Source: Stegostoma tigrinum (taxonomy: Eukaryota). From it: 64,000 bases of DNA. The stretch lies in contig NC_081387.1 in the NCBI RefSeq assembly GCF_030684315.1, positions 10,870,822-10,934,821 on the forward strand. Reading direction: 5' to 3'. This document shows, one piece after another, positions 19,517 through 56,046 of the stretch. The stretch's first letter is position 1. The number at the start of each line of letters is the position of its first letter. A program made the position numbers and the translations under genes. The notes below the pieces were generated by a model, which was not told where the DNA came from, searched no databases, and was given only the letters and a program-made list of their open reading frames with translations.

Positions 19517-19652
19517 CAGGAACAGCTATGACAGCGAGGACAGGATAGTAAATCTTTTCCAACTCAGTTATGAAATAATATTTCAGCCACTGGTCCATCT
19601 CTGAGGAATGCCAAGCAAAGTCCTCCCACTGACAATCAGAGACAGCTCGCAT
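19517..19652 (-). pseudogene. GPR139: GPR139-like exon 1, copy 1 (N-terminus/TM1 start) with mutated splice donor
   Basis: Encodes MDQWLKYYFITELEKIYYPVLAVIAVP, the typical N-terminal YYP..L...P segment of this family. The donor reads CCTG|ATAAGT instead of the CCTG|GTAAGT seen in copy 2. Confidence 0.8.
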
Positions 19653-24560: not shown

Positions 24561-26317
24561 TATGTTCTGCTGACTGTCGGGGCGCCCTCACTCGATGGCT
24601 GGTCGAGAGGCTTCGATTTGTTCTCAGCACAGTTCACGATTCCGAGTCGAAGCGAAGACCAGCAGCAACAGCTTTGAACGAAGCTCTCTCTCTTATGCAG
24701 TGTGACAAACAGCCAGCATAAATAAAGCAGATACAGCAAGACAGAACTGCTGCCTGGGACAGACCACACTTGAGGGGGGAAGAAAACGAAAGAACTGCGA
24801 ATGTTGCAGATCGTGAACAGAAACAAAAGTTGCTGGGAAAATGCAGCAGGTCCGGCAGCATCTGCAAAGAAAAAAAATCATTTTGAATTCACTTTTAGTG
24901 TCCGGTGAACCTTCCTCCAAACGGGGTGAGAAAACATGTGCGGATGTTGTCTTTGGCTGGTGCAGGAATATTTGCAGTTATCATTCAGGGTCATGCAGCT
25001 TTTTATGGATTATTCTGAACTTTCCCAGCATATTCCCCCCTCCTATCCAATCCATGTTCTCTTGCAGATGTTGAATATCATCATTCGCGTTTGGCGATTC
25101 GGCCCATCATATGTTCGACATTTGAAGAGGCCGGTGTTCTTAAGTCGAGCACATCAGCCGACAGAATGGTGCAAACATTAGTACTTCTCTCCTTAAGGTC
25201 GGAACGAATATGTTGTTGTGTAATAACTAAAACAACATCACATGAGGGGATTAAAAAATTCAGTGACGAGATGTAAAACTGCATTTCTCTTGGCCACAAT
25301 GGTTGCAGATTGAGTTAGTGCAACATCAATGAATTGGAATTTGTCCTTTTCCTTTTGAGGTTTTAGCGGCTTCAGCACCGGCAGTGGATTGAATGGTCAC
25401 ATTCTGCACCCGGTCAGTGTCAGCGGGGGCCGCTTCAGCGTGATTCCTCTTTGGGGTTGTGGCCTCAGAGACAGCTTTGGTGGCTGTGGAGAGAGATGCA
25501 TCCCGCAGCTTCTCAGGAAATCCAAAAGCAGTGTATGGGGCAAAAAAATGGAAATTTAGACTAAAGTTATATAATTTGTTTACTTTAATATTTTTTGTAA
25601 TTAAAATGATGATTTGCACATATTTTACAGTATTTTCATAAAGACATGTAACAATAATTTACTTTTATTATTATTACCTGACTGAAAACAGTAAGAAAAG
25701 CAGGGCAACATCAGTCATAGAAACAATAGCTGAACATTAAGGCTCAACAGAACACCAACAGCAGCAATGAGAGGATTGTAAATCTTTGCTGAATCGGCAG
25801 TGAAGTGATAAAACATCAACTGATCCATATTGGTGGAATGATTCAATCCATTTAAGAATAGAAAATTTTACTTCATCTTTATCACATTAAGTGACAATGC
25901 AAATGATACAAAATATATCGCTGATACAAGTAAAACCTTCTGCAGATCCAACTCAGTTCTGTGGGTTCTGATATTAATTATAGTCAGTGAATAAAATATG
26001 ACCATAAGGAATTGTTCACTTGAAAGGCCTGAAATATTCCCAAAATAAACATGCCCTGAAACCAAGGTAATCCTGTTTGATTGTATTCCACTCTGTGAGG
26101 TGATGATTTATTCCTTGTGGTTAACTCTGTTTTAGGAATCTCCTGGTTTGACTGACATGACAGTCGCCGGCCCTTCTGAAAAAACTGCGGAATGTAGGTC
26201 ACGTGTAAGGGTACTCAGAGCCGATGGATTAACTGCAGTTGGTGATGAAACAATGGGTCTGTAAGATTGTAGAAAGTCATTTAGTAGACGCCTTGTGTTT
26301 TCATGGAGAGGCTATGT

Positions 26318-28879: not shown

Positions 28880-29766
28880 TCATGCAATTTGAGAAAAGGG
28901 ATATTTGGCCACACTCTTCAACTGCTCTCTGAATTTAGTTTGGATTATGGCATAAATGCATGTATTTGTGCAGCAACTCAGGAGCTGAAGCATATTTCCT
29001 AATCTGCTAATAAAATGAGGTGCAATTGCAGACACATAACCTGAAAACCATAAATGAGCCCACACTGAATATACAATATGTATTGCCCACAAAAATATGA
29101 AATTTCCTGAAATTGCAAATAGTAAAATTATAGATTTCATTCGGTTCTCTATCTCTGTGTCTCTGTCGCTCACTGTATTGCTTTGAGCCCGGAGTCTACT
29201 GCGTGCTTTACTGGAGACCAAAATGTGCCTGACGGTAAAACCATTCAGCAGAAGGATCAGAACAAATGGGAGACATGGAGTTACAGTGCTTTGAAGCAAC
29301 TCGATTATAATCCGCTGCCATACATCAAAAACATCAAATGTTGTTTGACAAAACCAAGGTAAGTTCACAAGTAAATACCGGCCTGTGAATAAAAAGTACC
29401 ACACCGTGTTTTTTAAAAAGCTCAACACAGTCACAGTTCCAAGAACCACAGCCACAGTTTTCTCTGTACAAGACTTAGTTTTCAGTCTCTGGTTGCAAAT
29501 TGCCACAAATCGACCAAACGTGAAAGTGACAGTGAACCACACCGAACAGTCTGTGGCTGCATAAATAAAACATGTGTGGATATTGCACACACGGAAGGAT
29601 TTCAAAAAATTAAAGCGTTTCCAATAAACAATAGGAATCTGCCTCAAGATCAGGTCAGTGATAAGCACGATTAGATCTGCTGCTGCCATGGCCACCAGAT
29701 AATGACTTACACCTTTCGATAGGCCACACTTTCCCCGTGATAAGATCCCAATCGTCACTGCGTTAA
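28880..29766 (-). CDS. GPR139: GPR139/GPR142-like class A GPCR, exon 2, copy 2 (open frame; DRF->GRF; C-terminus 5 aa short)
   Basis: Polypyrimidine tract plus AG at 29768-29767, then (V)NAVTIGILSRGKCGLS..YLVAMAAADL..DCSVWFTVTFTFGRFVAIC..P..LILLLN..LLFAISGNF..LSCCTNTCIY. This gives a 7TM pattern with GPR139/142-family motifs. Confidence 0.88.
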
Positions 29767-32692
29767 CTGAAAGGAAGAGAAAAAAAAACAGGTATATTAA
29801 TCACCTGCTCGATATAATGCTATAAGCCTCTATGATTAATTATAATATCCATGGATATATATTAATAAATCTGTCATATTGTTAACTGCTGTAAACGGGA
29901 CCTGAATTAAGTAAATTCTCAATTATATCGAAGTGTTTATTTATGGGGATAAAACAAAATGGCTGAAAAACATATTCTCGATTCAATAAAATGATTGCAG
30001 TTCTGACAAATGTTTCCCTGTATTTGCAAAATAAAGAATATCATTTTCATATATAATGTAGTGCAGAAGAGGTAAACTGCAATCTGATGATGCAACATTA
30101 AGCTCAATGCTGCCAGCTTCGAGTGGAAGTTAAAATTCATAAAATTCATAAAAATCATAAAATTGCATCAAGAGAGAATATTCTCCTTGAAGTCAGATGG
30201 AAGAAGAAAATGGACAAATTTCCTGTAGTTCGAAAAGATGCATGATTGAATCAGCAAAATCTTTTTCATGCATCAAGTGTTCCGTTCTACTTGCACCGGC
30301 TCATTGGTGGAGGCAGGAGCAGTGCGAACAGGATTAAGGATAAAGCAGACTTTTATCCAAAATGGATGAATATTCTGCAATGCACAGACAGTAAAGGCAA
30401 TGATACCAGTTTTACTAAATTAGCTCATCATAACCTTATGTAAATAATGTCACGATGGAAAACAGATTTCAAGTCTTTTTTTTCAATGACGTGAGACATC
30501 TAAAGTTCTTCTTCCTGTTGTCACGCAGCTATTGGGTATGTACATGAAGGAATGCACACCATAAAATACCGAAAAATTACCGACTTCAACAAAATACCAT
30601 CTTGTATTTTTTTTCACAATCCGGAGATAATGTGAACTGCAAATTAGTGCTTCCACGATCTTACGGACTCCCTGACCTGTAAAATATTTTGGCGTTATAT
30701 TACATCAAATCATTGATTGGAAAGCAGTACACGGAAAGTCGAAAGTAAATACTTCTCAAGGTAAATCACTTTTGTTATGATAACACATTATAGACAGGAC
30801 GAAAAATCGGTGTGATATCAAGATGCTATCAAATGAGCTGACTTCAGAAACATTAGAGTGCGGCTCTCGACACGCTTGTCTGATCAGAGAATCAAGTATC
30901 TGTTTCTTCAGATGGACATATTAACTGTTGAAACGTTGAAAGTGATGATATGCAATTCATTCCACTCAATATACTAAAGCAAGTTCCTCCTGAGAATTAT
31001 TCGCTAGATGTATTGATGTGACATTGTAACAACAGCAACAGAATGGAATACATTATTTAGGAATTCATGTCTGCTTCCAGAAACTTACCAGCAACACCAA
31101 TAGTACCAGGGAGAGGATAGTAAATCTTTTCTATTTCAAAACTGAAGAAAAATATCTCGTCCATCACACTATAACTCCTTTTTCATCCTTGCACTTTCTG
31201 AAAAGCCGTTGATCATTATTCATGCTGGTGACATTGAAACATGGTTTATAAATAGAAGTGGAAATCCCATTGGTGATTGTGATAAAATCCTTGGAGGCTG
31301 GCATTAATTTGCGTTCATGTTGAAAAACAACATGAAACAATTCAAACAAAATAATCACAATGGATTTATGATGATAAAATTTATTAAAAACACAAAATTT
31401 TCTGAAAACTAAAACCGTTTCATTTGAGAAGCTAAGGACAGTACGAAGGGAGCACAGACAGGGGTTTGGTGGAAGGACAGACAACGATGTTACTTCTTGT
31501 CTATTCACAGAATAACTCCTGGGCTGTGGGATATCTGCAACGACATTCCAATTTCAATGGCTGGCTTACCATCCTGAGAAATCTTTCCAAAGGATGACAC
31601 TGTCAAGATCACCACCAAAAATGAAAGTCAGCTCAGATCTAATGGTTGGTTATACGGTAAGAATATTGTCTCCCAAGGATGATGCAATGGAAAGATGTAT
31701 TTGATTGGCAGTTATGATCATGAGCCCTGTATTGGGGCAAAAGGAGGGGGAAAAAACCTAGAATAATGTCATCCAGCCAAGCCCTATTGAGATGGAACTA
31801 CTCCATATTTTGTTCCAATTCCATATCTCTCTCCTTCACATCCATTACGTTGCTGTGGCACATCTCAGTAGAATAGAAAAAAGACCCCGTCTGAGCCCAG
31901 GTGTTTCAATTCTCAAGCATTCTCCATCTGCTAATCCAGCAATTGCATTGATTGGAATGGGGTGGTGGTATTATCTCGACATTAAATCCTTGTGAAATGC
32001 CCTACCAGCAAATAATTGTTGATTAAATGTTGCAAAATAGCTATTGGGCACATTTTCTGGTGAACCACTTCTCACCATCGCCCAGACACAGCAGGATGTC
32101 AAAATAAAAACAAAGGTTCCATATTCTAAAATTAACTCCCTTTCTCACCCACCCAACCCCTCACAGGACCATGAAAATTCCAGAAACAGAGTGAGTTCTG
32201 TATTGGTGAGTTCCCTTCGTTATACAGCACAAACCATCCCCAAACACCCCGCCCAATGTGCATCTCACCAACAACACTACACCCCTTCCCACACATGCAC
32301 ACAGCAACATTTGTCTACCCCAAACTCACTCCTCCAACTGTGCATTAGCATTGTCGGCTTTGTCGAGTCACTGAATAGTTCCAGCTAAGAAATCTGAGCT
32401 TCAGTTGATTCACATCCCAGTAATGTCAAATGTTTGTTATTTGAATGTGAAAGTCTTCAGAGCCACACTAGGCACTCTCATAACAAGGAGTCAACTCACT
32501 GCTGAGTTTTTTGAGGGTCACTTTCATTGTGAACCCAGGACAGGAAATGAGACCACAATCCTGACAAGTCATTCAACCAAACAGCTAACTGAGCTAACCG
32601 ACACTTAACTCTCCAGTTGGCTGATCCAAAAAAGGTTTCCTTGTTCGTTTTCCAAACCTATCATTAGGAAAAGTTGAAAGTAACTGAAAGTA

Positions 32693-32990
32693 ACTCTCTG
32701 GATCAATAGGACCCCTCCCGAACTCTCAACCTACATTTGCCTTCACTGGCTCCAATCCCGTCTCTTTGACCTGTCTGTCTCCTCTCACCCGAGCTTCTCC
32801 TTCATCCATCTTCAATCCTTCTCCCCCTCTATACCATATTATTTCAAAATTCCCTTCCCCCCCCCACCTTTCTGAAGAAGGATCTTAATCCAAAACATCA
32901 GCTTTCCTCCTCCTCTGATGCTGCTTGGCCTGCTGCATACATCTAGCTCGACACCTTGTTATCTCAGATTCTCCAGCAGTTCCTATTATC
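32693..32990 (+). mobile_element. Residual 3' end of the Penelope-like pair after an internal deletion (unit 2)
   Basis: Matches only the distal ~300 bp of the plus arm in units 1 and 3. Confidence 0.75.
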
Positions 32991-35019
32991 TCTGCCATTT
33001 GTGGATTTGCTGGTGATCTGTTATCCCCTAGAGATCCAGCTCCAGACCATGCTGCCTCATTTTAGAGAATATCAGACCAAACCTGACAGTCAATCAAATA
33101 GGTGGAAAGCAATTGATGGAAAGTTTTCAGGAAGGAGGGCCGCAGGGAAGTGGGCATGCTGCCAACAGGCATCCAACAAATATATTAGTTTTGATTTCCA
33201 CTCAGCAACCTCACAGGGAGGAAGTCACTGCTGCGTGGAAATCAACCATCAGAGGCCCAGATCCTTGTTCCATTCATTGATACTTCTCAGCAATGGCTGC
33301 AGACATTTCATGATGTTAAAGCTGTGGGGAAAGAATGTGGGCAGTCGAGGAAGATTTATCAACAGGAGAAGGGAGGTGTCATATAATATTTATTTTTCGC
33401 CCCCACCCCTGACGGAAAGTCACTCATCCTGTCACCAAATGCCTTTTGAATTGTGAAGCCCAGAGAATAGTACCTGAAGCCACACCGGGTTCAATTCTTA
33501 TATTCCCCACGTCGCTATACAAGTATAGATGACTGAGGATTCAAACACCTATCACCCACCCAATAAAAAACTCACGCACACCCCAAACCCTGCCGTTTCT
33601 GAACTCAACATGGAATGAGGGAGATATATCTGACCACGGCCAATTTCAGGGAATTTACATCCCCACACGCTCTGGATTATGATTCCAGGAGGTGCACTCT
33701 ATTCATGAGTTCTCAGTTTTGTGTCCCTGATCATTTCTGAGCAGGAGTGTTTGAGCCAGTAGCTTCACAGTCATGTGGGATTTCTCTCTTTTGTTTCGAA
33801 GCACAAATAGACAAAACATGTTGATTTCTCAGCTAATGTATTTTACTTGCAACTAACATCAAAGTACACGATGTTCGAATAACAGTTATGTTTCAACTAC
33901 AAGCCAATATCATCGAAAAGTTTGTATTATCGACATTTAAGCTCCTATCTGGATCATAAACGTGTATTTGTTGCCATATTTTTAATACATTCTGCATTTT
34001 GTTGCTTTGCTCTCTCCACTGTGAAGCTGTCTTACACTTTAGGTGTCGTGGAACTGTGTTTTACTAATCTGAATATTATTTGTTCAGAAGGAACTGCTGT
34101 ATTCTATGAATCGGGATTCATTCAAATTTTGGTGGGGAAATATCTCTGCTATTGACTTAATCCATCAACTCAACACACAGGGAACAAAAACAAGGTTGAT
34201 AGCTGGCACAACAAAATGAAATGTCAGGAACATGGACGAGCACTTTGTCACAGTATCCAAGTTTCATTCCAGACCTTCAGGCTCTTTGTGACAATCAGAG
34301 CATTTCCAATATTCCACGGATTCTAACTGCCCCTTTTTACACAAATATGGTGGTGGTGGATTATTATCAATAAATGAATGCTTAATTCGTTGGTTTTATG
34401 TTCTTATTCAAGTGAGGATTATTTTAATGCTAATGAAGATGAGTAATTCATTTGAGGAGCCAAACAGATGCATTGACATCAGGCTAATCCCACATGACTG
34501 TGAACAATTAGGAGAGCTCTTCTTTTAATTTCCAAAGACTCTTTCTGAAATAAGGAATTAGCTATTATCAAAATACCTAAAAGACATTTGCTATAAACAT
34601 TCAAAGAGTGTACGATGATGAGAATGTCATGTCATTTAATGATTTGAAGATAGTGGATCTGTTCTGTGACACTTTAGGAAGTCAGTGATATCTTGTTAAT
34701 GAGCACAATATCATCAAATGAAACATTCTCACAGAACAACTTTATGCTGTATTCGATGATGCGTAAATAATAGGTAAGTTTACCATCTCATTCCTTCAAA
34801 AATGTACTCTAATAAGTAGCATCAATTTTACCAACAGGAAGCATACGAATCAGTTGTTATGTTTAAAACGTCATTCAGATCTTATATATAAGTGTCAACT
34901 TGATACATAATCGGGCACAATTAAACTAAAATCCTGCTGCACATTTGAATATAAATGAAGGAAAATCAAGTCAACAATATTCCTGAAAAGTGCACAAAAT
35001 TATACTCGTAGCTTTTCTT

Positions 35020-36435
35020 TCATTTTGTTGTATCGATAATTTTGTACTTGCATGAGAGAAGATTCTTGAAGGTTTTCTTGAAGATGGCATTGCACAGAGC
35101 ATAACAGACTGGGTTGATGGTGCTGTTGATGTAACAGAGCCAATATCCAATGGTCCACATTGTGTCAGGGATACAAATTGAGCAGAAAGTGCTCAACACC
35201 ATCATGACATTGTATGGGGTTCCACTAATGATGTATGCAAGGATGACAGCTAGTATGGTTCTGGTTACCTGATGCTCTCGAGATTTAGATACTTTCTTCG
35301 ATGTATTCCTGTTTATGTTAACTAAATTATGGCGTGTTCTTATCATTGGGACATTCCTTTTCTTCCTGTTGATATTTGGGAGTATTCCTGCTGGGTTGCC
35401 ACAGTCCACATCTTTTTCAAATTTACAAATTCCCTTCATTGAGAAGCAATTGGAGTTGTCAATCCGAAAATAATTTTGTCCCACATAAACACTTGTTTTC
35501 CCTTGGATTGCTTCTTCCTGATTCTCATTAGCAGGCAATGCACTGAGATAAGTTGAATCATGAGTGAGCTCATCTTGATGACTTTGGTCATAGCCATCAC
35601 CTGTCAATTGATCGGGTATTTTGCCACTTTGCACTTGATCATGCAGAGGCACAACAGGAATTGTTGGAATTCTGTTATTATTTGTTTTTGCTATTTTTTC
35701 TTTCACTGGGCTAGAAGAAACTGTGGAATTACTTGTTTCAGGTGCTGTTTTATCTTGTTTAATTCGGCATTTGCTTGCACGAGATATGAATGTGTACAGA
35801 GTCACCATGATTATAGCAGGGAGATAGAAAGAAGCTGTACCGATACTGAGAGTGACAGCTGGATTTGAGAAGAATTGTACATAACACTCACCTTCGTTAA
35901 CTGTCCGCTCCCCTCCGATGTACTGCCAGAAGATAATGGGCGGCGCCCACAGGATAAATGGCAATCCCCAAGCAGCTGCAATCATCATCAAGACCATCTT
36001 CGGTCTTTCCTTCACAGGGCAGTGAACCGGCTTTGTCACGCAGAAGTAGCGATCAAGGCTGATCATGAGGAGGTTCAAGGAAGAGGCATAGCTGACAACA
36101 TAATCTACAGCAAACCAGAAATCACATGCCACTGGACCCAGAGGCCAGTATCCAACCACAATGTAAACGGTGTATAAGTTCATAGAGAATGCACCAATAA
36201 TGAAATCCGCACAGGCTAAGCTGAAAATAAAGTAGTTATTAATAGTTCGCAAATGTCTGTTGACTTTGATAGATAAGAGCATCAGAATGTTTCCAACAAT
36301 GGTCACCAAACTTAGAGATCCTGCTGCAATAACAATGAAGATCATTCCCACTGTATTACAGGAACTCCCTCCTGCAACATCAAACAATCCATTAGTGCTG
36401 CAGTGAGATTCATTTGTCTCCATTACATTGGTCAT
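35020..36435 (-). CDS. CHRM2: Muscarinic acetylcholine receptor M2-like, copy 2 (471 aa)
   Basis: Same motifs as copy 1, with intact YWPLG, DRY, PYN and NPVCY. ATG at 36435. Confidence 0.95.
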   Translation of the reverse strand: MTNVMETNESHCSTNGLFDVAGGSSCNTVGMIFIVIAAGSLSLVTIVGNILMLLSIKVNRHLRTINNYFIFSLACADFIIGAFSMNLYTVYIVVGYWPLGPVACDFWFAVDYVVSYASSLNLLMISLDRYFCVTKPVHCPVKERPKMVLMMIAAAWGLPFILWAPPIIFWQYIGGERTVNEGECYVQFFSNPAVTLSIGTASFYLPAIIMVTLYTFISRASKCRIKQDKTAPETSNSTVSSSPVKEKIAKTNNNRIPTIPVVPLHDQVQSGKIPDQLTGDGYDQSHQDELTHDSTYLSALPANENQEEAIQGKTSVYVGQNYFRIDNSNCFSMKGICKFEKDVDCGNPAGILPNINRKKRNVPMIRTRHNLVNINRNTSKKVSKSREHQVTRTILAVILAYIISGTPYNVMMVLSTFCSICIPDTMWTIGYWLCYINSTINPVCYALCNAIFKKTFKNLLSCKYKIIDTTK

Positions 36436-37719
36436 CCTTTTGTCGTGATGCACAGATATCAAATCCCTAAATGCATGAAAGAAAGGAAAGATTGCAATAA
36501 ATTGTAACTTCACAGGGCTGTGTTTATGGCTGTTCTGAAATTTCTAACATCAAGAGGACCAAAAGTAGTCTCAACATATTAACTTCATTCTCTTCTCAAA
36601 GCGACACACTATTTGGTTTGAAATTGTCTCGGAAATCACTATTTTAAAAATTATCTAAGACAGTCAATTACTTTTATTTAATAAGTGAAGATGTGCTTGG
36701 TAACATAGCAAACGTATAGCCCAGAACCAGTCTGAAATAACCCCATGCAGGCTGTGTGCTGTCATCCTGAATTGACATGTACCCAATACACGATGGTGTT
36801 CGAGCACACTGAGATCCAGCTTCTCGGGTGAACAGAACCCCACTCTCCTGTTTATATCCGTCATCCAGGACTCCTGCATCCTGCAAGTCGGTCTCCTGGC
36901 CGGGCATGGCGGAGGCTCAGCACCGTGCGGCAGTCTCTCAGTGGCCTTTGGTCCAATGTGGCCTCAGCGTGAACTTCCATCCTCCAGGTGATTACAGAGT
37001 GGTCTCCCGGCCTTGTCAGCCTCCAGGTGAATCCCAGCGCGGTCTGGAGTCAACGCTCAGTGGGGACTGGAAGCTTTTGGGAGCGTGGACTGGGTTTGAA
37101 GGACTCTTTTGCTGAACATTTTTATTTCTCTCTCTTTTAAAAAATTTATTCCTATGATCTCTAATACTGGATTTTTTATTTCTTTATTTCCCTGCCATGC
37201 CACCCCGCCACGAAACTTGAACTGAAGACTCTGTAACTATCTGCATTTTTACCTCAGATGGTCCTATTAGGGGCGATTTGTAAACTTTTTGCTGTACACT
37301 TTTGAGTACATGTTACAACAAAGCTAAATCTAACTCAAGATTAGACCAGTCCAAATCTGGGCACTCACATTCTATGATATCAACCTCTTTGACTCCATTA
37401 AAATCACGACATCCTTCCCACTCTGACTCCTGGGTTGTGTGATACTTTCGTCCCAGTCCCGGATCCTCTGACTCTGCCTCAGTTACGGGCCAGTGTGTAC
37501 CAGACCATGGACTATGCTTTGCGCTGGGAGCACATCAGGAAAATTCATCCTTTTTCTCAAGCGGTGATGGTGTTGAAGCTCCATCACCTGCTGTGTCCCA
37601 TCTAGGACTCGGAGGTTCCTTATGACGCCTGGTGAAAGGAGGTATCCACGGGCTCTCACAAACTCTCCGGATACTTTGACGGGCCAGGGATGTTGCTGCC
37701 CCGTTTATGAGGTTGCAGC

Positions 37720-38410
37720 TTTCTTCTGGTCCAAGTTCCAATATCCCAGGAATTGGTCCACCCCGTCACACCATCTTTTCATCCACAGGTTTATCTTACA
37801 TATGGTACTGTTTCTACGCTGACCAGCTCATTGCACTGGAAGTAGTCCTGACATAACCACCTTTGAGCGCCTGCATTGCAACTTTCTTCGTAGATCTCTA
37901 TAATCTGCTTTCAGTGCCCATCCTTTCGGGTTAACCGATGTCATTTGCACCAATGTGTACCACAACCAGTAGCTGTTCACCCTCCCGACACAGAATGTCA
38001 TGCAACCACTTCAAGACATCCAGGACCCGGAAACAGGGAGGGAACACACCATTCTGGACTTCCATTTCACAAAAACTCCCTTTATAGTTGAATCCCCAAT
38101 TACTGTTGATTTCTGTGCGCAAACTCCCTCCCACGACAGCAGAAACAAACATGCCCCCATGACGTTTGCTGCTGCTGTTGTCCGCTGGATGCTGTTCCTC
38201 TCAACAGTTTACCAAACGGTGTATCTGTTTCTCAGGGGAATAGCCACAGGAGACCCCTGAACTGCCTGCTTAGCCCTCCTGTCTGGTGTCACACATTCCC
38301 CTCCTGCCCGTGGTGTCTGAGTCTACAGTGTTACCACCTCTCTATATGTGCCATTCATAATAATCTCCACCTCACAAATGCCCCACCGTGTCCCCAGGCG
38401 CTGGTCAAGG
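37720..38410 (-). mobile_element. CR1-type LINE ORF1 esterase relic, unit 2 copy
   Basis: Paralog of 10640-11330 (LVVVHIGANDIG). Confidence 0.75.
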
Positions 38411-39164
38411 TACATTTGGCGAAATTACATTTTGGTTCTACAATTAGTCAACAGTTGAAGGAAAGGATATTCACTCCTTTGATTCTTTTATGTTGATATA
38501 ACTGTTGCCCGTGACAGAATTGACTTAAGATGGCCACCAGCGATTTCTCCTGTAAAGCCTTGCCCCTTTAAATTAATTATTCCTTACAATGTCAAATACA
38601 TTTAATACTAGATTGTATCTGATGATGCTCTCTGCTCCACTGACAATTTCATGAAAAGTAACTAACACTCACCAATATAGTTTCCAGAGCTGTTTCACGC
38701 CACGCTTCTTTGCTGCGGAAGTTACTCTCAAATTGTTCTCTCTCCTCTCCTCTGAACTTTGCCCAACTTTTGTTTTGGTAAGCAGAGGAAGGAGGGATAA
38801 AAACATTGCAGTAACGTAATCTTTGGGCTGACCGTTCCTCAGCACCATGTTCTCCCACGATGCCTTTCTGACTGCGAAATCCATTCCCAGAATGAGAACA
38901 CTCGAACTCGCAGCATGCTCAGCTTGCATCTCTCTAAAGCTATTTCGCCCTTCAGTTTTTGGGTGTGAGCCTGTTATTTCAATCAGTGCTAACTGAACCA
39001 ATTGCTTCTCAGAAGACAGCAGAACTGATGTTATGGTTAGTTAATTACTAATGGTTGGCTTTCCCCAATACAGATTCTCAGCCTGGCTGAGGTCCTAAGC
39101 AAACTGACGGTTTGGAGTTCAGAGAGAATTTTGGTAAAGACTGGTTCCACAGTAACTGATACAA

Positions 39165-40360
39165 TATCAACCTCTATTAGAACCAGGTGACCATTTAATC
39201 AAATATTTATTTTGATTGGTTCTGATTTGGATGTTGTGAAGCAGTTTGCCTGTTCCAAACCAAATACTGGTGCATTTTCCAAGGGGTGCAGTCATCTGGA
39301 TACTGGCCTATCCATTCTCTCACTAAATTCAGGTTTGGTGGGACTCATCTCTGTCTCAAGTCCACATACAGGTAGCAATTAAAATGGCCTGCTGACCTGG
39401 ATGCTTGAGAAAATGTTAACCATTTGACCGTGGCGTGCCTTTGTTTTGGGTCTTCGCTGTGGGGGTTGACCTCGAGTCACTCTGTTCAGGATATCTCCTG
39501 AGTGAGGCTGTGCAATTGCTCTTACCCAAGCGATGTTTTCCCAAGTCCCTCAGCCTGGCAAGGATGTCCACTTGCGTCAGAGTGCTTTGTAACTCATGAG
39601 CATCACTTGCATTTTCTAATGACAAAGTCAGTTGTATTGCCTGTTTGAAATCCAGTTGGGCTTCAGCTGTGGGTGAACACATCATAATTCCAAAACCAAA
39701 TGGTCTCTCAGCAACTGACTGAGATTAAACCAAAATCACACGCCTGTGACAGCCATCCTAACCATGGCAAAAATCCTGACATAGATTACACTGGATCTCA
39801 AAGTGCAATGTAAAATCAATAGCATCTCAGAATTAGAGGAGGCTTGGGGTCATGATATTCTTTTACAAAATCTGTCAATTTTTGAAAGGTTTATGCATTT
39901 GGTGCCTCAAGAAACATTAGGTTCTTCATACTGAAATAAGCTGCTGGCCCACAAGCTGCTTACAGAATTACTCAGTCCTTTTCGGCTGCCCCAATGTCAT
40001 TTGCCTTGAAAAATAAAGCATTCGTTCCACATACTGGGCCCTAACGTCAATGGCAGGATCAAATGTGTCAAGCATCTGAAATGGCAATATGACTCCAGAA
40101 ATGCTAACCTGAGCTCAAACACAACTGTTTCGAATGAATCCCTTCAGGAGGGTGTTTCTCCCTCATCACCACTGAAGTAACTCGACAGAGGCCAGTATCG
40201 CATCACCAACTCACCGTTTAGTCACACATGTATTCTGCCTGACACTGATCCAGTTGGCTCAGAGTTGGCTCTCAGAACTCTTGATACTTCTGTTTATGTT
40301 TGATACTTCTGCCAGCCAGGGCTCCTGATTAAATGAGGTTAACAACCCCACTCAGGGAGC
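39165..40360 (-). mobile_element. Ty3/gypsy relic, unit 2 copy
   Basis: Paralog of 12180-13390. ORF 39416-39685 reads AEAQLDFKQAIQLTLSLENA. Confidence 0.6.
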
Positions 40361-41459
40361 TTGACACATAAATAAATTGCTACTTGTTGATTATCAAGTA
40401 AGTGGCAGAGAAATGTTTTAGTTAACCACTAGTAGTTGACAAAAGGCAGGTTACACCATTCGAGTATGACATCCACCCCTCTGACCTCGTTCCAATCTCT
40501 GTTCTGTCTTACTTCATTAAGTACATTTCGTGAGATCGGGTTTTGGCTTTGCAAGCTTTCAACCACTTAAGGAAAGATGATAGTCACTCCTTTGATCCTT
40601 TCCAGCTGATATAACTGTTGCAGATGCCAATGACTAAGTTGGCTTAAATTGACCACCAGCCACATTTTAGCTGGCATAAAATGGCCTGAAGGTTGTTGAC
40701 AATTACGGTTGACAGATATTCACAGTAAGACTTTGGACCTCCATGTACGATTACCGGATAAGATAATGAAAGGTCTCAGTGAGAGAAGAGAGGAGAGTGT
40801 AGTCCGTGAGGCTTCCTTGATAGGGGAGGCATAGATGAAAACCTTTAAGCAAACTAATATAAAAGTTCAACTTAACATACAGTGGAAGGGAACAATTGAC
40901 CCACTTACTTGAAACATTTTCAGGCATTTTTAAAATGCATACACTAGAGTACACATATGTATGTTGAACGAAAATTAAGGCTTTAGTTTTGACATCTCAG
41001 TATTCAGGGTCTTTAATTTGATTTCTCAACTCCAAGCACACCTGCATTGCTCATAAAAAAAGAACTTTGAAATTGCTAAACAGGAGACAGTTATTAACAA
41101 GCAATCGATATCTGTGGTTCAAAGAACGAAAGGAAAAGCATGACGGCACAATAATCTGGAAACTTTGGATAATTGTCATTACATAGGAAATATATCCACT
41201 TGAGTTGTGCGAAATAACATATGTGAACTTAAAAACTTCCATAAAGGAATTTTGTTGAATTCTTATGAGCAGTCAATCATGGACACTAGAAGGAGACCTC
41301 CTGATTAGCGGGAAAGATAGAGCAATAGATGGTGAAAACAGACAACTTGTAAGAGAGCAAAGAGGTTGCAAGACATGGAACATGAGCAAATATAACTTCA
41401 CAGCTCCGCACACAGATGGCTGTGAATATGACTGAATTTCACCCTTCTCAATTGGGCTT

Positions 41460-42310
41460 GCGAAAGGGGACTCTTTTAGAATTAGCAGCCTGGTTAAAAT
41501 TTGGCTGAACTTGGGACAAGAACAAAGCTGAAGTTCGAAAGCAGTTAGCCTCAAATTTGGGTATATAAGAGCAACAGTCAATTACCGTGGATTGGAAAAA
41601 ATTGAATTGCACATTTGACAATTAGAGTTACGGGACAAAGAAAGGGAAAGTTGATTACGAGTCGTGGAAAAAGAGAGGGAAAGAAGGACCCAAGCTGAAG
41701 AGAAAGAAAGTAAAGAAGAGAGAATAAAAAAGGAGAGAATGTTTGAGTTGAAAATTATGAAGTTGGAGCTTGAAGGAATAAGACTGAAAATGACAAAAGT
41801 AAAAATACAAGATAGAGGTGATGATGAGCAAAATCATCATAGCCAACAGCCTGTTAGGGTAACTGCGAAAAAGCCCAAACGTTATCAAAATGTGATGAAA
41901 AACACATCAAAGCTTTTTTCATTACTTACGAGGAATTAGCTGAACAGATAAACTGGCCAGAGACTATGTGGAGAATGTTAACTCAGACAAAGTTGTTAGG
42001 CAGGGCTAGTGATGTGTTTGCAGCACTGTCAGAGGAGGTCTGAAGTGAATATGAAGAAATAATACAGACTATTTTTAGTGCTTGTGAATTCATACCAGAA
42101 ATATTTTGATCAAGGCTCCAAAATATAAGAAAAGAACAGTTCAGGCATTTATTTTATTGAATAGAATTAACAGAACAACATCCATAGATGGTTGAGAGCT
42201 TCAAAGACAGAAAGATAAATCAGGATATTAGAGGTATTACTCTGCTTGAGGAGTGTAAAAACTCCTTTCCAGAAAAGATAATAACTCAAGTTGAGGAGCA
42301 GAAAGTTAAA
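41460..42310 (+). mobile_element. Gypsy-type gag/SCAN-like relic, unit 2 copy
   Basis: Paralog of 14480-15420 without the 91-bp insertion. Confidence 0.7.
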
Positions 42311-43597
42311 GCTGTCTCAGGCTTGCTGCAGTGTCCCAGTGAAGTGCAACATAGGTTGAAAGAACAACACTTCAATTTCCACTTGGGGATCTTGCAGCCC
42401 TCTTGACTCAGTGCTGAGTTGAACAATTTTGGTGCCTAAACTCTCCCATATCCGAGCCCCCATCCCCATACACCAGGCCTTGTCTACCATGACATGTTAC
42501 CTATTGTTAGCCACTCAGTCTACAGGAACAACTATTCATCCTCTGAGCCAGATCAATTCTACATTTCTTTGTCTGTCCAACTGTTGTTCACTATCTGTGG
42601 GCTCTCTCCCCACCAATCAATTCTCCTTTCCCCTTCTCCCACCCTACCTGCCGCATATAAACCGGCATTTTACTGGCTAACATCAGCCTGAAGGAAGGGA
42701 CACCGGGCCCAAAATGTTAACTCTGGTTCCTCTTCACAGGTGCAGTCAGATCTGCTGAGATTTTCAGCTACTTCTGCTTTTGTTTCTGATTTACAGCATC
42801 CATGGTTGTTTCAGTGTTAACGACGTCTCAAATCCAGTCCAGTGTCTACAAGGCTCACATCAGTAAAATTTGCCAAATTCCCAACTCGTATGGATAAGTT
42901 TAAGTTCAAAAACATTCAGGAACTATCCAGGACAAAGCAGCCACCTTGATTAGCACCACTTCCACAAACAGTCAGCCCTTCTCCCACTAGTGCTCAATAG
43001 CATCAGTGTGTCCGATCTGTAAGGTGTAAAGCAGAAGTGTCTACAGCTCAAAGGTGTTTTTGCACGTCACATGCATTATTTACTCCCTATTATCAGATTC
43101 AACAAAACTGTAGTTATGAAATAAGGTGTGATGTCTCCAACTGTAATCTTAGGAAGGAATATTCCACTGAAAATGATTCTGGAACCAATGAACTTTCCTG
43201 AGAGAAACTTGCTCAGCAAATAACCAACACGTACATTGTACATACGCCTGCAACTTTTTTTTCTGACAAGCAGCAAACAGGGAACAATGCATACTGACCT
43301 GCAAACAAAATCATCCTTATTTACAAGTCCAGTATTCGTGGCACTTTGTAATCTGGCGCTAAAAAAGACAATTTTATTTTCAAACAAACATATTCAACAT
43401 GCTTATCAAGCAAATAAGCTTTAACTGACATATCATACAGCATTTCAATGAAGGTGGCCCCAATCCCAGGGGAGTATCTCACGCAAAGTGATCACTTCCC
43501 GAAAGCTTTGACCGTATGTCATTGCCTAATCTTCCCAACATCAATCAAGCAACGTCAAGATATTAAATGGCCATCCATGCAAAATATCAGGTCATCT

Positions 43598-43885
43598 TTA
43601 GATTTCGATTCCCTACAGTGTGGAAACAGGCCCTTTGGGCCAGCAACTCCACACCCGACCTTGAAGTATCCCACCCAGACCCATCCCTCGACAACCCACA
43701 CACCCCTGAACACTACGGGCTATTTTGCATGGTCAATCCATCTAACCTGCTCATTTTTGGACAGTGGGAGGAAACCGGAGCACCTGGAGGGAACCCACGC
43801 AGACACGGGGAGAATATGCAAACTCCATACAGACAGCCGGCCGAGGCGGGAATCGAACCCGTGTCCCTGGCGCTGTGAGGCTGCA
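43598..43885 (-). mobile_element. HE1/V-SINE type SINE, unit 2 copy
   Basis: Paralog of 17309-17596. Confidence 0.9.
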
Positions 43886-45804
43886 TAAGATTTTGGGAAC
43901 AAGATGAGACAAGTCTTCACGAGCTGAAAAGCAGACGCAACTGCGAAACAACATATCACAAAATAAAAGTCAGCAGGGATCATGCTGCAATATAGTGGAT
44001 GAAATATTTTCATCACTGATTCTAATTTCACCTTTCCAAAATCGGCTGTCACCAAGCCAAATGGAACAGATGGTCTCATCTGAAATCAACAAATTTCTGA
44101 AGCTGCATTTTAATTATGACGGACCAAGAGGAAAATGCCCACCTAAAAGCATTGTGGATATTAACGTGTGACCTTATTGTCTGCTGCTGAACACAGTGAT
44201 TGGCAATCAGTTACATACATTGTAAAATTAAAATAAATACGCAGGATGAAGTCACACAGGAGAGAAACCTCTGGTATGGCAGTTGTGGTGTTACTCTCAC
44301 TGAAACGGAATTTATGCACTTTAATCTCACACCAGAATTTTCCCTTTTTTGCCGAGCGTAGGTGTATTTCCCATATGAACAACCAAGTCGGTTTGCAGTC
44401 TCCTCCTATTCGCGAACGCCAGGCGGCAAGCAATGAGTGCAGGAGAATACTCCTGGACAAGCCATGCTGCGTGCACCAGCGTGAAACTTCTGCAGTACTT
44501 TGTCAATGAGTGTGGAATAATCATCTGGGTATCGTGACTCGAACCTCAGAAACCAGAATGGAGGGAAATACAGGCAGACAATATCGCACAGCAGTTTGTA
44601 AATGATGAAAGAAATTGCAGCGGGAGATCTGACAGTTTCATTCACTTCTCAGCGAAAATAAATGACTATGTTGCAAGGAATCATGCTGGAAAGGAACGTT
44701 TCGGGGAATGAGAAGCAGGTCTGGGAGTAACGTATTTATGCAACTTAGTGAGAGATTTCCTAAACTTAAGCAAGCACAGAGAAATTCAATTATTTCAAAG
44801 GACAGATTGGAAAACGTTCCTCAGAAACACATCAACTTATATTTGGGACGCAATTAAAACTTTTGCCAAAAAGTAAATCATTTAGGAAACAAAGCAAAAT
44901 TCCACCGAATCAGATATGGCAGAACATGAGCTAGATGACTGGAGATGAACCCCAAACCATTAGAATAAAATGTCTCGCAATGTATCTGTGTTCTATTTAT
45001 TCACGAATGTTGCTTAAACTTTGCATTATTAACGTTGCCCGAAAACAGAATTGTAATCTGTTTCAGAGACTTGCAGAAATTCTTAATCCGAAAAAAGCCG
45101 ACATTGCTGAAAAGATGTCATGAAAGTGGAGATATGTCATTCATTGATCATCGAATTAACAGGTGAAGGTGTAATAATTCACTGATCCAGATTTGAATGG
45201 AAGACCTTTCAGTAGATTGGATGGGAAGAGGTAAAACCTCTCTCGGAACTCAAAAACATCCATGACAAACAGGCTCAATTGATTGGCCCTCGATCTACGG
45301 TCTTGGACAAATCACTCGGTGCGCCACTGGTAACACAGGACCAACAGTGTGCATCATCGAAAAGATGAACAGCAGCAACACATCAAAGCTGATATTTCAA
45401 AATCCGGTCCGCCATTACCTCATAAATGCATGGGAACACATTGATCTCAAACGTTTTCTCCAAGGCTGATCACCCCGATCGCAAATCCTATCATTGTACA
45501 TTCACGGTTCCTGGATCAAACCTTGGAATTCCTTCCTTGAAATCACCATTGACGTGCGACGTCCTTACAAATGCTGAGAATCAAGAAGACAATGCGCCAC
45601 CACCGTCTCTGCAGACACTAGAAATACTCAATAACTGCCCAGAGTGACGACACCTACACTATTTAAGCAAATATTTAGAGAGCAATTAAATTAAATCCGA
45701 CTATCCCTCAGAAGGAGTCCAGCAGAGTGCTTGGGTGCATTGATCTAAAATAAGACAAAAAGCCGTGAGAATACAGTTTGTGGAAATGATCAACGCAGAC
45801 TTAC

Positions 45805-45940
45805 CAGGAACAGCAATGACAGCGAGGACAGGATAGTAAATCTTTTCCAACTCAGTTATGAAATAATATTTCAGCCACTGGCCCATCTCTGAGGAATGCC
45901 AAGCAAAGTCCTCCCACTGACACTCAGAGACAGCTCGCAT
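45805..45940 (-). CDS. GPR139: GPR139-like exon 1, copy 2 (ATG at 45940 or, more likely, 45886 MGQWLK)
   Basis: Encodes MGQWLKYYFITELEKIYYPVLAVIAVP, then G|GTAAGT, a canonical phase-1 donor at 45804. It joins in frame with exon 2 (G+TT=Val, giving ..IAVPVNAVTIGIL..) for a 322-aa (or 340-aa) protein. Confidence 0.82.
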
Positions 45941-50162: not shown

Positions 50163-50840
50163 CCAGGCCCTAAGATGACTTTCCATATTCAGCAGATGTT
50201 CACCTGTACATCTGCTAATGTAGTATCGTATTTCCACTGGACCCGGTGTGTCTTCCTCGACATTGGGGAAACTAAGCGGAGGCTTGGGGATCGCTTGACA
50301 GAGCACCTTCGCTCGGTTCGCAAGAAACAACTGCACCTCCCAGTCGCAAACCATTTTAGCTCCCCCTCCCATTCCTCAGACGACATGTCCATCATGGACC
50401 TCCTTCACTGCCACAATGATGCCTCCCGAAGGTTGCAGGAACAGCAACTCATATTCCGCTTGGGAACCCTGGAGCCCAAAGGTATCAATGTGGACTTCAA
50501 AAGCTTCAAAATCTCCCACTCCCCCAGTGCATCCCAAAACCAGCCCACCTCGTCCCCTGCCCCCACTGCATCGCAAAACCAGGCCAATTCGTCCCCGCCT
50601 CCTTAACCTGTTCTTCCTCTCACCTGTCCCGTCCTCCCACCTCAAGCCGCGCCTCCATTTCTGCCAACCTCATCCCGCCTCCTTGACCTGTCCGTCCTCC
50701 CTGGACTGACCTATCCCCTCCGCACCTCCCCACCTACACTCTCCTCTCCACCTATCATCTCTTCAATCCATCTTCGGTCCGTCTCCCCATCTCTCCTTAT
50801 TCGAAAACCCTCTCTCCATCCCTGTCTCTGATGAAGGCTT
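50163..50840 (+). mobile_element. Penelope-like GIY-YIG fragment, unit 2 copy
   Basis: ORF 50175-50606 reads CTSANVVSY..IGETKRRLGDRLTEHLRSV. Confidence 0.9.
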
Positions 50841-52597
50841 ATGTTCTGCTGACTGTCGGGGCGCCCTCACTCGATGGCTGGTCGAGAGGCTTCGATTTGT
50901 TCTTAGCACAGTTCACGATTCCGAGCCGAAGCGAAGACCAGCAGCAACAGCTTGGAACGAAACTTTCTCTCTCTTATGCAGTGTGACAAACAGCCAGCAT
51001 AAATAAAGCAGATACAGCAAGACAGAACTGCTGCCTGGGACAGACCACACTTGAGGGGGGAAGAAAACGAAAGAACTGCGAATGTTGCAGATCGTGAACA
51101 GAAACAAAAGTTGCTGGGAAAATGCAGCAGGTCCGGCAGCATCTGCAAAGAAAAAAAAATCATTTTGAATTCACTTTTAGTGTCCGGTGAACCTTCCTCC
51201 AAACGGGGTGAGAAAACATGTGCGGATGTTGTCTTTGGCTGGTGCAAGAATATTTGCAGTTATCATTCAGGGTCATGCAGCTGTTTATGGAGTATTCTGA
51301 ACTTTCCCAGCATATTCCCCCCTCCTGTCCAATCCATGTTCTCATGCAGACGTTGAATATCATCATTCGCGTTTGGCGATTCGGCCCATCATATGTTCGA
51401 CATTTCAAGAGGCCGGTGTTCTTAATTCGAGCACATCAGCCGACAGAATGGTGCAAACATTAGTATTTCTCTCCTTAAGGTCGGAACGAATATGTTGTTG
51501 TGTAATAACTGAAACAACATCACATGAGGGGATTAAAAAATTCAGTGACGAGATGTAAAACTGCATTTCTCTTGGCCACAATGGTTGCAGATTGAGTTAG
51601 TGCAACATCAATGAATTGGAATTTGTCCTTTTCCTTTTGAGGTTTTAGCGGCTTCAGCAGCGGCAGTGATTGAATGGTCACATTCTGCACCCGGTCAGTG
51701 TCAGCGGGGGCCGCTTCAGCGTGATTCCTCTTTGGTGTTTTGGCCTCAGAGACAGCTTTGGTGGCTGTGGAGAGAGATGCATCCCGCAGCTTCTCAGGAA
51801 ATCCAAAAGCAGTGTGTGGGGCAAAAAATGGAAATTTGGCCTAAAGTTATATAATTTGTTTACTTTAAGATTTTTTGTAATAAAAATGGTGATTTGCACA
51901 TATTTTACAGTATTTTCATGAAGACATGTAACAATAATTTACTTTTATTATTATTACCTGACTGAAAACAGTAAGAAAAGCAGGGCATTATCAGTCATAG
52001 AAACAATAGCCGAACATTAAGGCTCAACAGAACACCAACAGCAGCAATGAGAGGATTGTAAATCTTTGCTGAATCGGCAGTGAAGTGATAAAACATCAAC
52101 TGATCCATATTGGTGGAATGATTCAATCCATTTAAGAATAGAAAATTTTACTTCATCTTTATCACATTAAGTGACAATGCAAATGATACAAAATATATCG
52201 CTGATACAAGTAAAACCTTCTGCAGATCCAACTCAGTTCTGTGGGTTCTGATATTAATTATAGTCAGTGAATAAAATATGACCATAAGGAATTGTTCACT
52301 TGAAAGGCCTGAAATATTCCCAAAATAAACATGCCCTGAATCCAAGGTAATCCTGTTTGATTGTATTCCACTCTGTGAGGTGATGATTTATTCCTTGTGG
52401 TTAACTCTGTTTTAGGAATCTCCTGGTTTGACTGACATGACAGTCGCCGGCCCTTCTGAAAAAACTGCGGAATGTAGGTCACGTGTAAGGGTACTCAGAG
52501 CCGATGGATTAACTGCAGTTGGTGATGAAACAATGGGTCTGTAACATTGTAGAAAGTCATTTAGTAGACGCCTTGTGTTTTCATGGAGAGGCTATGT

Positions 52598-55144: not shown

Positions 55145-56046
55145 TCATCGGAAAATATATCTTGCAATGTGAGAAAAGGGATATTTGGCCACACTCTTCA
55201 ACTGCTCTCTGAATTTAGTTTGGATTATGGCATAAATGCATGTATTTGTGCAGCAACTCAGGAGCTGAAGCATATTTCCTAATCTGCCAACAAAATGAGG
55301 TACAATTGCAGACACACAACCTGAAAACCATAAATGAGCCCAGACTGAATATAAAATATGTATTGCCCACAAAAATATGAAATTTCCTGAAATTGCAAAT
55401 AGTAAAATTATAGATTTCATTCGGTTCTCTATCTCTGTGTCTCTGTCGCTCACTGTATTGCTCTGAGCCCGGAGTCTACTGCGTGCTTTATTGGAGACCA
55501 AAATGTGCCTGACAGTAAAACCATTCAGCAGGAGGATCAGAACAAATGGGAGACATGGAGTTACAGTGCTTTGAAGCAACTCGATTATAATCCGCTGCCA
55601 TACATCAAAAACATCAAATGTTGTTTGACAAAACCAAGGTAAGTTCACAAGTAAATACCGGCCTGTGAATGAAAAGTACCACACCGTGTTTTTTAAAAAG
55701 CTCAACACAGTCACAGTTCCAAGAACCACAGCCACAGTTTTCTCTGTACAATACTTAGTTTTCAGTCTCTGGTTGCAAATTGCCACAAATCGATCAAACG
55801 TGAAAGTGACAGTGAACCACACCGAACAGTCTGTGGCTGCATAAATAAAACATGTGTGGATATTGCACACACGGAAGGATTTCAAAAAATTAAAGCGTTT
55901 CCAATAAACAATAGGAATCTGCCTCAAGATCAGGTCAATGATAAGCACGATTAGATCTGCTGCTGCCATGGCCACCAGATAATGACTTACACCTTTCGAT
56001 AGGCCACACTTTCCCCGTGATAAGATCCCAATCGTCACTGCGTTAA
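55145..56046 (-). CDS. GPR139: GPR139/GPR142-like class A GPCR, exon 2, copy 3 (intact, DRF retained; exon 1 expected beyond window end)
   Basis: ORF 55145-56083 with acceptor AG at 56048-56047. Complete TM1(part)-TM7 with FDRFVAIC and NTCIY. Confidence 0.9.

What the first reader, a model, noticed from the sequence alone, without database searches (positions are those of the whole stretch)
28880..45940. GPCR nested in a GPCR: an M2-like muscarinic gene inside the intron of a GPR139-like gene, same strand, amplified as one cassette
Seen: the only GPR139-type first exon I could find (45805-45940, EKIYYPVLAVIAVP, donor G|GTAAGT) lies 16 kb upstream of exon 2 (acceptor at 29767). The two join in phase 1 to rebuild TM1 (IAVP-V-NAVTIG). 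The complete CHRM2-like CDS (35020-36435) sits between them on the same strand. Unit 1 has the same layout (19517 / 7930-9345 / 1825), and there exon 1 and exon 2 are both inactivated, which supports the pairing. Known: same-strand nesting is uncommon, and CHRM2 is normally a single-copy, stand-alone gene. Inference: this is a two-receptor cassette expanded by tandem duplication. I do not know of this architecture being described.
Basis: partly seen in the sequence, partly recalled or inferred. Interest (0 to 1): 0.88.

Follow-up and report, generated by a model that had tools for sequence, protein, structure and literature searches.

The report
Shark muscarinic copies borrow neighbour's exon
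The proposed gene-inside-a-gene is not required, because the outer receptor gene has its own first exon close by, but this shark carries 17 open-frame copies of the normally single-copy M2 acetylcholine-receptor gene among orphan-receptor genes, and the copies likely use a neighbour's left-over first exon as their own start.

Summary
A second GPR139-type first exon (31089-31164; ATG, GTAAGT donor, phase 1) lies 1.3 kb from exon 2, downstream of the M2-like gene, and gives an open 320-aa receptor; all 8 tandem units carry it. So nesting is not required.

The far exon belongs to another, older gene class. In older loci of this contig that class has its own exon 2 (intact in 3, a relic in 6) ahead of the M2-like gene; here that exon 2 is undetectable.

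What remains is unusual. The contig holds 19 CHRM2-derived genes (17 open frames, core dN/dS mostly 0.2-0.35), copied as a promoter-less coding exon into a cluster of an orphan GPCR family with over 1,100 motif matches genome-wide. Each open-frame copy lies behind such a first exon, whose GTAAGT donor survives where its own exon 2 died. Best reading (0.55, no RNA evidence): first-exon and promoter capture. A 2018 survey reported no local muscarinic duplicate in any vertebrate. Related sharks and stingrays also carry multiple copies. One locus 0.55 Mb away has the true nested layout.

The parts
45805..45940 (-). Far GPR139-type first exon ('class A'). The family-homologous ATG is at 45886; donor G|GTAAGT. 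Its own exon 2 is undetectable. Likely first exon of the M2-like transcript.
   Evidence: (nhmmer --max finds no exon-2 relic downstream)
36436..36468 (-). Splice acceptor TTTAG| (AG at 36467-36468) and 31-nt leader of the M2-like coding exon. Resembles the acceptor 36 nt before the ATG of native CHRM2. Out of frame with the far exon (stop after 2 codons).
35020..36435 (-). CHRM2-derived single-exon CDS, 471 aa. D3.32, DRY and NPxxY kept; W6.48G, N3.37Y, T5.42I, A5.43G, A5.46S.
31089..31164 (-). Native partner of exon 2.
29767..31088 (-). 1,322-nt intron of the GPR139-like gene
28880..29766 (-). GPR139-like exon 2 (rest of the 7TM domain). Open frame; DRF>GRF; stop 5 codons earlier than in sister copies.
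52028..52108 (-). Decayed class-A first exon ('mid'), donor GT>TT. In longer units this exon precedes an internally deleted M2-like relic.
25748..25828 (-). Second copy of the decayed 'mid' exon
19517..19652 (-). Unit-1 far exon, donor GT>AT
7930..9345 (-). Unit-1 M2-like CDS. Open frame but 7 private changes at conserved sites (including W>C in ECL1, DRY>DHY, N6.52Y); likely decaying.
3153..3228 (-). Unit-1 near exon, ATG>TTG
944..1825 (-). Unit-1 exon 2, frameshifted
57379..57454 (-). Next unit's near exon, intact
55145..56046 (-). Next unit's exon 2, intact (325-aa receptor with its near exon)
62034..63446 (-). Next unit's M2-like CDS, 470 aa

Best explanation
The window is part of a mixed tandem cluster in which an M2-like gene and a compact two-exon GPR139-like gene lie side by side, and the far exon is the left-over first exon of a third, older orphan-receptor gene that likely now serves as first exon and promoter of the M2-like gene.
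Step 1 (shown): exon 2 has its own first exon 1.3 kb away.
Step 2 (shown): the far exon belongs to a gene class whose own exon 2 lies before the M2-like gene in older loci and is missing here.
Step 3 (shown for the sequence): the M2-like genes share with native CHRM2 only the coding exon, its acceptor, 0.1-0.5 kb upstream and about 1.3 kb downstream. That the native promoter was left behind is inferred from the human gene.
Step 4 (inferred): transcripts start at the class-A promoter and splice from its donor to the M2 acceptor. In this unit the far exon would be an upstream ORF ending 22 nt before the M2 ATG; in several older loci the join would be in frame.
Step 5 (inferred): the copies would be expressed in the cells that use the orphan-receptor cluster. 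They keep the amine-binding aspartate but have drifted in the pocket, so they would act as amine receptors with altered pharmacology rather than as standard M2.
For: All 17 open-frame M2-like copies on C44 have a GPR139-type first exon upstream on the same strand, 2.8-16.3 kb away. This is shared descent, not 17 independent events. The exon 2 of that class is intact in 3 loci, a relic in 6 (one beside a broken M2), and undetectable in 2 old loci and all young units. In the 6 relic loci 20-30% of otherwise invariant exon-2 columns have changed, yet all 6 donors read GTAAGT. The chance of that for 5 independent lineages is 0.0001-0.006, or 0.001-0.02 without the locus found by a donor-containing profile. 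Donors also survive where the exon-1 frame is broken (loci A, D+, E). 'Mid' exons whose M2 partner is internally deleted are more decayed (4-7 of 19 invariant columns against 2-3 for far exons; stop in 3 of 7, donor lost in 2 of 7). In unit 1 the far donor is lost and the M2 copy has the most private damaging changes (7, against 1-4 in the other 6 copies). Two NCBI models, 2 of 150 M2-type proteins scanned, join this exon type to an M2-like CDS: XP_048375722.2 and bamboo-shark XP_043533789.1. Native CHRM2 has no such exon in the 50 kb held. Human CHRM2 is driven from promoters at untranslated upstream exons (PMC2198911 passages). Core dN/dS is 0.16-0.33 between old lineages and mostly 0.2-0.65 among young copies.
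Against: No RNA junction was seen; the only runs served were DNA-like contigs. The two NCBI models are predictions whose read support I could not see, and the bamboo-shark one enters the M2 N-terminus at a different point. For the four youngest copies NCBI uses another upstream exon (36784-36907 in this unit) instead. The decay yardstick is inflated: live genes left out also show 3-16% change, and the pooled exon-1 versus exon-2 contrast is weak (Fisher p 0.04). Locus D- keeps a perfect first exon although its M2 copy is broken. Orphan exons C2 and most 'mid' copies also keep GT donors. The far exon keeps its reading frame in 8 of 8 units and 21 of 27 residues with the bamboo-shark model, which a purely untranslated exon would not need. 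One independent report of a human CHRM2 promoter in intron 5 is mentioned as unconfirmed. Pocket residues are not more changed than other invariant sites in sharks (p 0.24 and 0.15).
Confidence: 0.55

Rival explanations
1. Nesting in one isoform: the far exon is an alternative first exon of the downstream GPR139-like gene, so the M2-like gene lies in a 16-kb intron of that isoform.
For: The phase-1 join is open and rebuilds TM1. The far frame is kept in 8 of 8 units. The far exon diverges less than background (19/264 against 11.5%), while the near exon (24/246) and its upstream 300 nt (15%) do not (comparisons not independent). In 19 of 20 paralogues elsewhere no exon 1 was found within about 8.5 kb, so long introns may be normal in the family. 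At C44:10.30-10.33 Mb an open 302-aa exon 2 has lost its near exon by a 1.57-kb deletion, leaving exactly this layout.
Against: A complete near exon exists in 8 of 8 units at a fixed 1.3 kb. The far exon's class has its own exon 2, only 43-47% identical to this one. The splice would have to skip the M2 acceptor, the M2 3' end and the near exon. The far donor is also kept in old loci where no downstream exon 2 was detected in the stretch held (D+, E).
Confidence: 0.25
2. The far exon is a slowly decaying relic with no function. The M2-like copies use a new local promoter, for example near the NCBI-predicted exon at 36784-36907, and both genes are simply neighbours carried along by tandem duplication.
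For: NCBI models of four young copies start about 470 nt upstream of the ATG. Exon-1 decay in relic loci (18 of 114 invariant columns) lies within the 0-21% range of live exons left out. The far donor is lost or weakened in 3 of 8 units (AT once, T|GT twice).
Against: GTAAGT is kept in 6 of 6 loci with a dead exon 2 and in 3 lineages with none. The NCBI upstream exon has a stop in 3 of 7 copies, and one model shifts its donor to avoid it, which suggests frame-fitting.
Confidence: 0.2

Closest known systems
CHRM2 (muscarinic M2; PDB 6u1n, 3uon)
   Same: Single coding exon with an acceptor shortly before the ATG; D3.32, Y6.51, Y7.43, DRY and NPxxY kept in this copy; 57% identical to the native gene on C22, with shared downstream flanks.
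   Different: 19 copies on another contig, long branches, W6.48G and four other pocket changes, and no native upstream region. PMC6298421 reports no non-tetraploidisation duplicate in any vertebrate it examined.
GPR139/GPR142 clade orphans ('probable GPR139' of NCBI; possibly the GPR210A/B orphans of PMC6504862)
   Same: PF00001; the nearest solved structure is GPR139; two coding exons split in TM1.
   Different: Only E 1.2e-8 to human GPR139. The nearest non-shark relatives looked up are salamander, coelacanth and teleost orphans at E 1e-45 to 1e-21. 1,146 exact motif matches in this genome. The GPR210 link is my inference from a passage, not tested.
Promoter or first-exon capture by a duplicated coding exon (general mechanism, recalled)
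   Same: A promoter-less copy with its own acceptor lands downstream of a host gene's first exon.
   Different: Here donor and recipient are two unrelated GPCR families, and the pair was then amplified repeatedly with loss of the host's exon 2. The splice itself is not shown.
TAAR family (aminergic receptors that expanded into chemoreceptors; PMC8890504, search listing and start of abstract only)
   Same: Lineage-specific tandem expansion of an aminergic receptor that keeps D3.32.
   Different: Muscarinic origin; no expression or ligand data here; no significant pocket-directed change in sharks.

Membership tests
Same-strand nested gene | The host's only first exon lies upstream of the inner gene | tested here: not met
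   Near exon 31089-31164 gives an open 320-aa receptor; present in 8 of 8 units
Same-strand nested gene | A host transcript spans the inner gene | not testable with these tools
   No RNA holder listed; the runs laid were DNA-like contigs
CHRM2-derived paralogue | Groups with CHRM2 rather than CHRM4 and shares CHRM2 non-coding flanks | tested here: met
   Quick IQ-TREE: 38-row shark clade SH-aLRT 99, sister to own C22 gene at 93. The downstream flank matches C22 and not C20; the upstream flank alone gave no hit at E 1e-3 but lies inside longer alignments.
Canonical muscarinic acetylcholine receptor | Intact amine and main pocket (11 residues listed in PMC10938299) | tested here: not met
   W6.48G, N3.37Y and A5.46S in this copy; 11 of 11 invariant in 13 orthologue rows
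Canonical muscarinic acetylcholine receptor | Activation by acetylcholine and Gi/o coupling | not testable with these tools
   Needs a cell assay
GPR139 orthologue | High conservation with vertebrate GPR139 | tested here: not met
   E 1.2e-8 to the GPR139 chain; GPR139 is described as highly conserved (PMC12208981 abstract passage). I did not locate the genome's own GPR139 orthologue.
Retrocopy | Loss of introns, joined 5' exons, no intronic flank | tested here: not met
   Copies keep the acceptor and up to 0.5 kb of upstream intron of native CHRM2
First-exon/promoter capture | Host donor kept after loss of the host's downstream exon | tested here: met
   GTAAGT in 6 of 6 relic loci; p 0.0001-0.02 depending on baseline and loci counted
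First-exon/promoter capture | Spliced transcript from host exon to captured exon | tested here: inconclusive
   Two NCBI predictions only; four other models use a different exon; no reads

The most novel reading that the evidence does not exclude
Sharks turned a muscarinic receptor into a multigene amine-sensor family. CHRM2's coding exon dropped into a cluster of a >1,100-member orphan GPCR family and took over its first exons, which act as shared starts spliced to alternative last exons: the exon's own exon 2, an M2-derived exon (in frame in 7 of 12 loci tested) or, at one locus, an exon 2 beyond a nested M2 gene. The orphan family and its captured muscarinic copies would be an overlooked chemosensory or methylamine-sensing repertoire in animals thought to have very few odorant receptors.
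Probability: 0.25. Interest if true: 0.85.

Novelty: new variant of a known kind. Interest (0 to 1): 0.62.

Why it matters
A published survey states that no vertebrate it examined has a local duplicate of any muscarinic receptor (PMC6298421). This genome has 17 open-frame CHRM2-derived copies under purifying selection, and the proteins found for other sharks and for stingrays point to separate expansions, with repeated loss of N6.52. If capture is real, it explains how a promoter-less receptor copy is rewired to new cells and then amplified. It also draws attention to a very large orphan GPCR family in sharks that my literature searches did not find described, while their known odorant-receptor families are tiny (PMC11979771 passage). 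One RNA experiment decides between the three readings.

Tried and rejected
RNA evidence: no RNA holder listed. Runs X1-X4 covered introns evenly and showed no splice joints among those listed, so they say nothing on splicing, and their depth was not used as copy number.
Search for longer proteins carrying the far exon: no candidate (weak search).
Exact look-up of two exon-2 ORFs: not in the collection. No protein above 67% identity to exon 2 among the 120 of 1,777 hits listed, so annotation does not show which first exon is used.
Exon-2 relic between the far exon and the M2-like gene: none better than E 0.3 in the young array with nhmmer --max.
Fusions of the orphan family to a muscarinic part: 0 of 150 representatives.
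Pocket-directed diversification: not significant in this genome's 8 lineages (p 0.24) or 12 other shark rows (p 0.15); p 0.02 in 7 related stingray rows. I do not claim positive selection.
Single-sequence AlphaFold model of the M2-like protein: pLDDT 35.5, unusable, no fold search run.
Careful tree did not finish in two runs; the quick tree is used. The broken D- copy was left out and 46 database rows were chosen by hand.
Assembly artefact as the source of the units: rejected, since units differ by about 1-14% and by indels.
Retroposition: rejected.
Earlier scan notes: none.
Literature searches for a description of the cluster or either expansion found none; in-text look-ups in PMC11979771 and PMC8455134 gave 0 hits for GPR139 or muscarinic. 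Subscription journals and supplements were not seen and could hold such a description.
Full report
1. Observation. The far exon (45805-45940), the acceptor (AG 29767-29768) and the phase-1 join give an open receptor, and a complete M2-like CDS lies between them on the same strand. The window is G000:C44:10,870,822-10,934,821 of a 3.2-Gb genome. The closest named proteins are labelled zebra shark, then whale shark and bamboo sharks. The near exon has ATG, G|GTAAGT and phase 1; across a 1,322-nt intron it gives an open 320-aa receptor. In 264 kb around the window there are 8 units, ordered far exon, M2-like gene (7 of 8), near exon, exon 2 and, after 7 of 8, a decayed exon. The near exon is in 8 of 8 units at 1,289-1,332 nt, with an in-frame ATG in 7 of 8; exon 2 is broken in 3 of 8. 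In unit 1 the near ATG is lost too, so co-inactivation does not favour the far exon.

2. What the far exon is. Searching the genome with it gave hits beside older M2-like genes on the same contig. I fetched the surroundings of all 12 older M2-like places. Profiles show a first exon upstream of each of the 10 open-frame copies and of the broken copy D-; none was found directly before the other broken copy. These exons share about 240-290 nt of sequence upstream of the donor with each other and with the far exon (locus E less); the near exon shares only the coding 80-90 nt. I call them class A. Class A has its own exon 2 before the M2-like gene: open in B, F1 and F2 (288-297 aa), a relic in A, C, D+, D-, G2 and G3, undetectable in E, G1 and all young units. 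The open class-A exons 2 are 43-47% identical to the window's exon 2, which is 64% identical to the large family elsewhere. So the ancestral repeat was a class-A gene followed by an M2-like gene, and the far exon is what is left of the class-A gene. The 'mid' exon is another class-A exon; in the longer units an internally deleted M2-like relic follows it.

3. The M2-like genes. C44 holds 19 places, 17 with open frames; the native CHRM2 is on C22 (57% identity) and the CHRM4-like gene on C20. Collinear homology to C22 covers the coding exon, 78-500 nt upstream including the acceptor, and up to about 1.3 kb downstream. This is a DNA-level copy, not a retrocopy. No orphan-family exon lies in the 50 kb held around native CHRM2. 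Human CHRM2 uses promoters at upstream untranslated exons (PMC2198911, passages), so the copies probably arrived without a promoter (inference). A quick ML tree puts all C44 copies with basking, smooth-hound, cat, bamboo and whale shark copies in one clade (SH-aLRT 99) beside native CHRM2, and the stingray copies in a separate clade (99). The seven young copies form one clade sister to a single whale-shark protein (four long branches are unsure). Core dN/dS is 0.16-0.33 among old lineages and 0.22-0.77 among young copies, with one pair at 1.46 on 2 synonymous changes. D3.32 is kept in all 17 copies. This unit has W6.48G, N3.37Y, T5.42I, A5.43G and A5.46S; N6.52 is replaced in 9 of 10 old copies and in many other sharks and rays. 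Numbering is by alignment and partly recalled; the 11-residue pocket list and the importance of W6.48 come from PMC10938299 (passages). The pocket is not significantly more changed than other invariant sites in sharks (p 0.24, 0.15; stingrays 0.02), so relaxation explains the data as well as retuning.

4. How it most likely works. A coding exon with its own acceptor, sitting behind a class-A first exon, can be reached by splicing from that exon's donor. Four observations fit. (a) Where class-A exon 2 has decayed by 20-30% at invariant columns, 6 of 6 donors still read GTAAGT. The leave-out control shows that live genes vary by 3-16%, which lowers the significance to p 0.0001-0.02 at the baselines tested. 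(b) Exons whose M2 partner is deleted are more decayed. (c) Unit 1 has lost the far donor and its M2 copy has the most private damaging changes, a single event. (d) Two NCBI models join this exon type to M2-like CDSs, one in this genome's locus F2 and one in the bamboo-shark orthologue of the young units. By a simple pyrimidine count the best acceptor is in frame with the phase-1 donor in 7 of 12 loci tested and out of frame in this unit, where the exon would be an upstream ORF. Against: no RNA; NCBI uses another upstream exon for four young copies; D- keeps a perfect exon beside a broken M2; and the far exon, unlike the near exon, is better conserved than background and keeps its frame, which also fits an alternative first exon for the downstream gene. 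My odds are capture 0.55, nested isoform 0.25, functionless relic 0.2. The first two can coexist.

5. A true nest may exist elsewhere. At C44:10,326,276 an open 302-aa exon 2 (dN/dS 0.20-0.35 against relatives) lacks a near first exon: against its 73%-identical paralogue, 1.57 kb containing exon 1 are deleted. The nearest first exon found is 21.7 kb upstream with an M2-like gene between. D- has the same layout with broken genes.

6. The 'GPR139-like' label. The nearest solved structure is GPR139, but at only E 1.2e-8 (none at 1e-8 for this unit). A profile search gave 130 clusters at E<=1e-30; of 10 looked up, the nearest non-shark ones are salamander, coelacanth and teleost orphans carrying the same automatic name (the atlas agrees). 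These may be the GPR210 orphans of PMC6504862 (passage; not tested). An exact 24-nt TM3 motif occurs 1,146 times in this genome against 0 for the reversed control; intact genes were not counted.

7. Comparison and novelty. Tandem duplication, promoter capture and mixed clusters are known kinds (recalled). PMC6298421 (abstract and passages) states that no non-tetraploidisation duplicate of a muscarinic gene was found in any vertebrate; 'shark' occurs once and 'cartilaginous' never in its text, so sharks were apparently not sampled. NCBI already labels many shark and ray proteins 'M2-like' and 'probable GPR139', so the sequences are public. My searches and look-ups in PMC11979771 and PMC8455134 found no description of the cluster, of either expansion or of the shared first exon. 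PMC12208981 was seen as two passages and PMC8890504 as a listing only. No supplements were read, and subscription journals are not covered.

8. Verdict. The headline as written is not supported; the amplified two-receptor unit is real; the more interesting facts are the muscarinic expansion and the likely capture of a neighbour's first exon. New variant of a known kind, interest 0.62.

Noticed in passing
G000 genome-wide (listed places on C9, C10, C12; C13 and many small contigs): 1,146 exact matches to a 24-nt TM3 motif of the 'probable GPR139' family, control 0: a very large orphan GPCR family in megabase clusters, the listed ones near contig ends. No description found in my searches.
   Followed up: partly
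G000:C44:10304494-10327146 (+): Candidate true same-strand nest: class-A exon 1, M2-like gene, then an open exon 2 whose own first exon is deleted.
   Followed up: partly
G000:C44:10229736-10219500 (-): NCBI model XP_048375722.2 splices a class-A exon 1 in frame onto an M2-like CDS, skipping an intact exon 2: possible alternative last exons.
   Followed up: partly
proteins P0133, P0137, P0144, P0164, P0190, P0194, P0202 and their clusters: Stingrays have a separate M2-like expansion (at least 15 Hypanus proteins in two clusters) with N3.37 and N6.52 changes that parallel those in sharks.
   Followed up: partly
window 36784-36907 (-): Exon predicted by NCBI as the first coding exon of four young M2-like copies; it carries a stop in 3 of 7 copies. 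Status unknown.
   Followed up: partly
L008-L009 region (G000:C44 about 10.77-10.78 Mb) and left flank: One unit has lost its M2-like gene entirely, and five M2-like relics share an internal deletion of most of the CDS.
   Followed up: partly
window 28880-29766: Exon 2 diverges less among units at synonymous sites (dS 0.02-0.09) than the non-coding background (0.10-0.13), a hint of gene conversion.
   Followed up: no
window 32758-33351, 42262-42855, 43450-44043; ORFs 23866-24327 and 50145-50606: Very high-copy interspersed repeats (depth) and ORF remnants that look like the endonuclease end of a retroelement (family label from recall, not tested).
   Followed up: no
proteins P0290, P0348: NCBI models in catshark and smooth-hound that fuse this orphan receptor to proteins named integrin alpha-X-like and sodium-channel-like; probably annotation read-through.
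   Followed up: no
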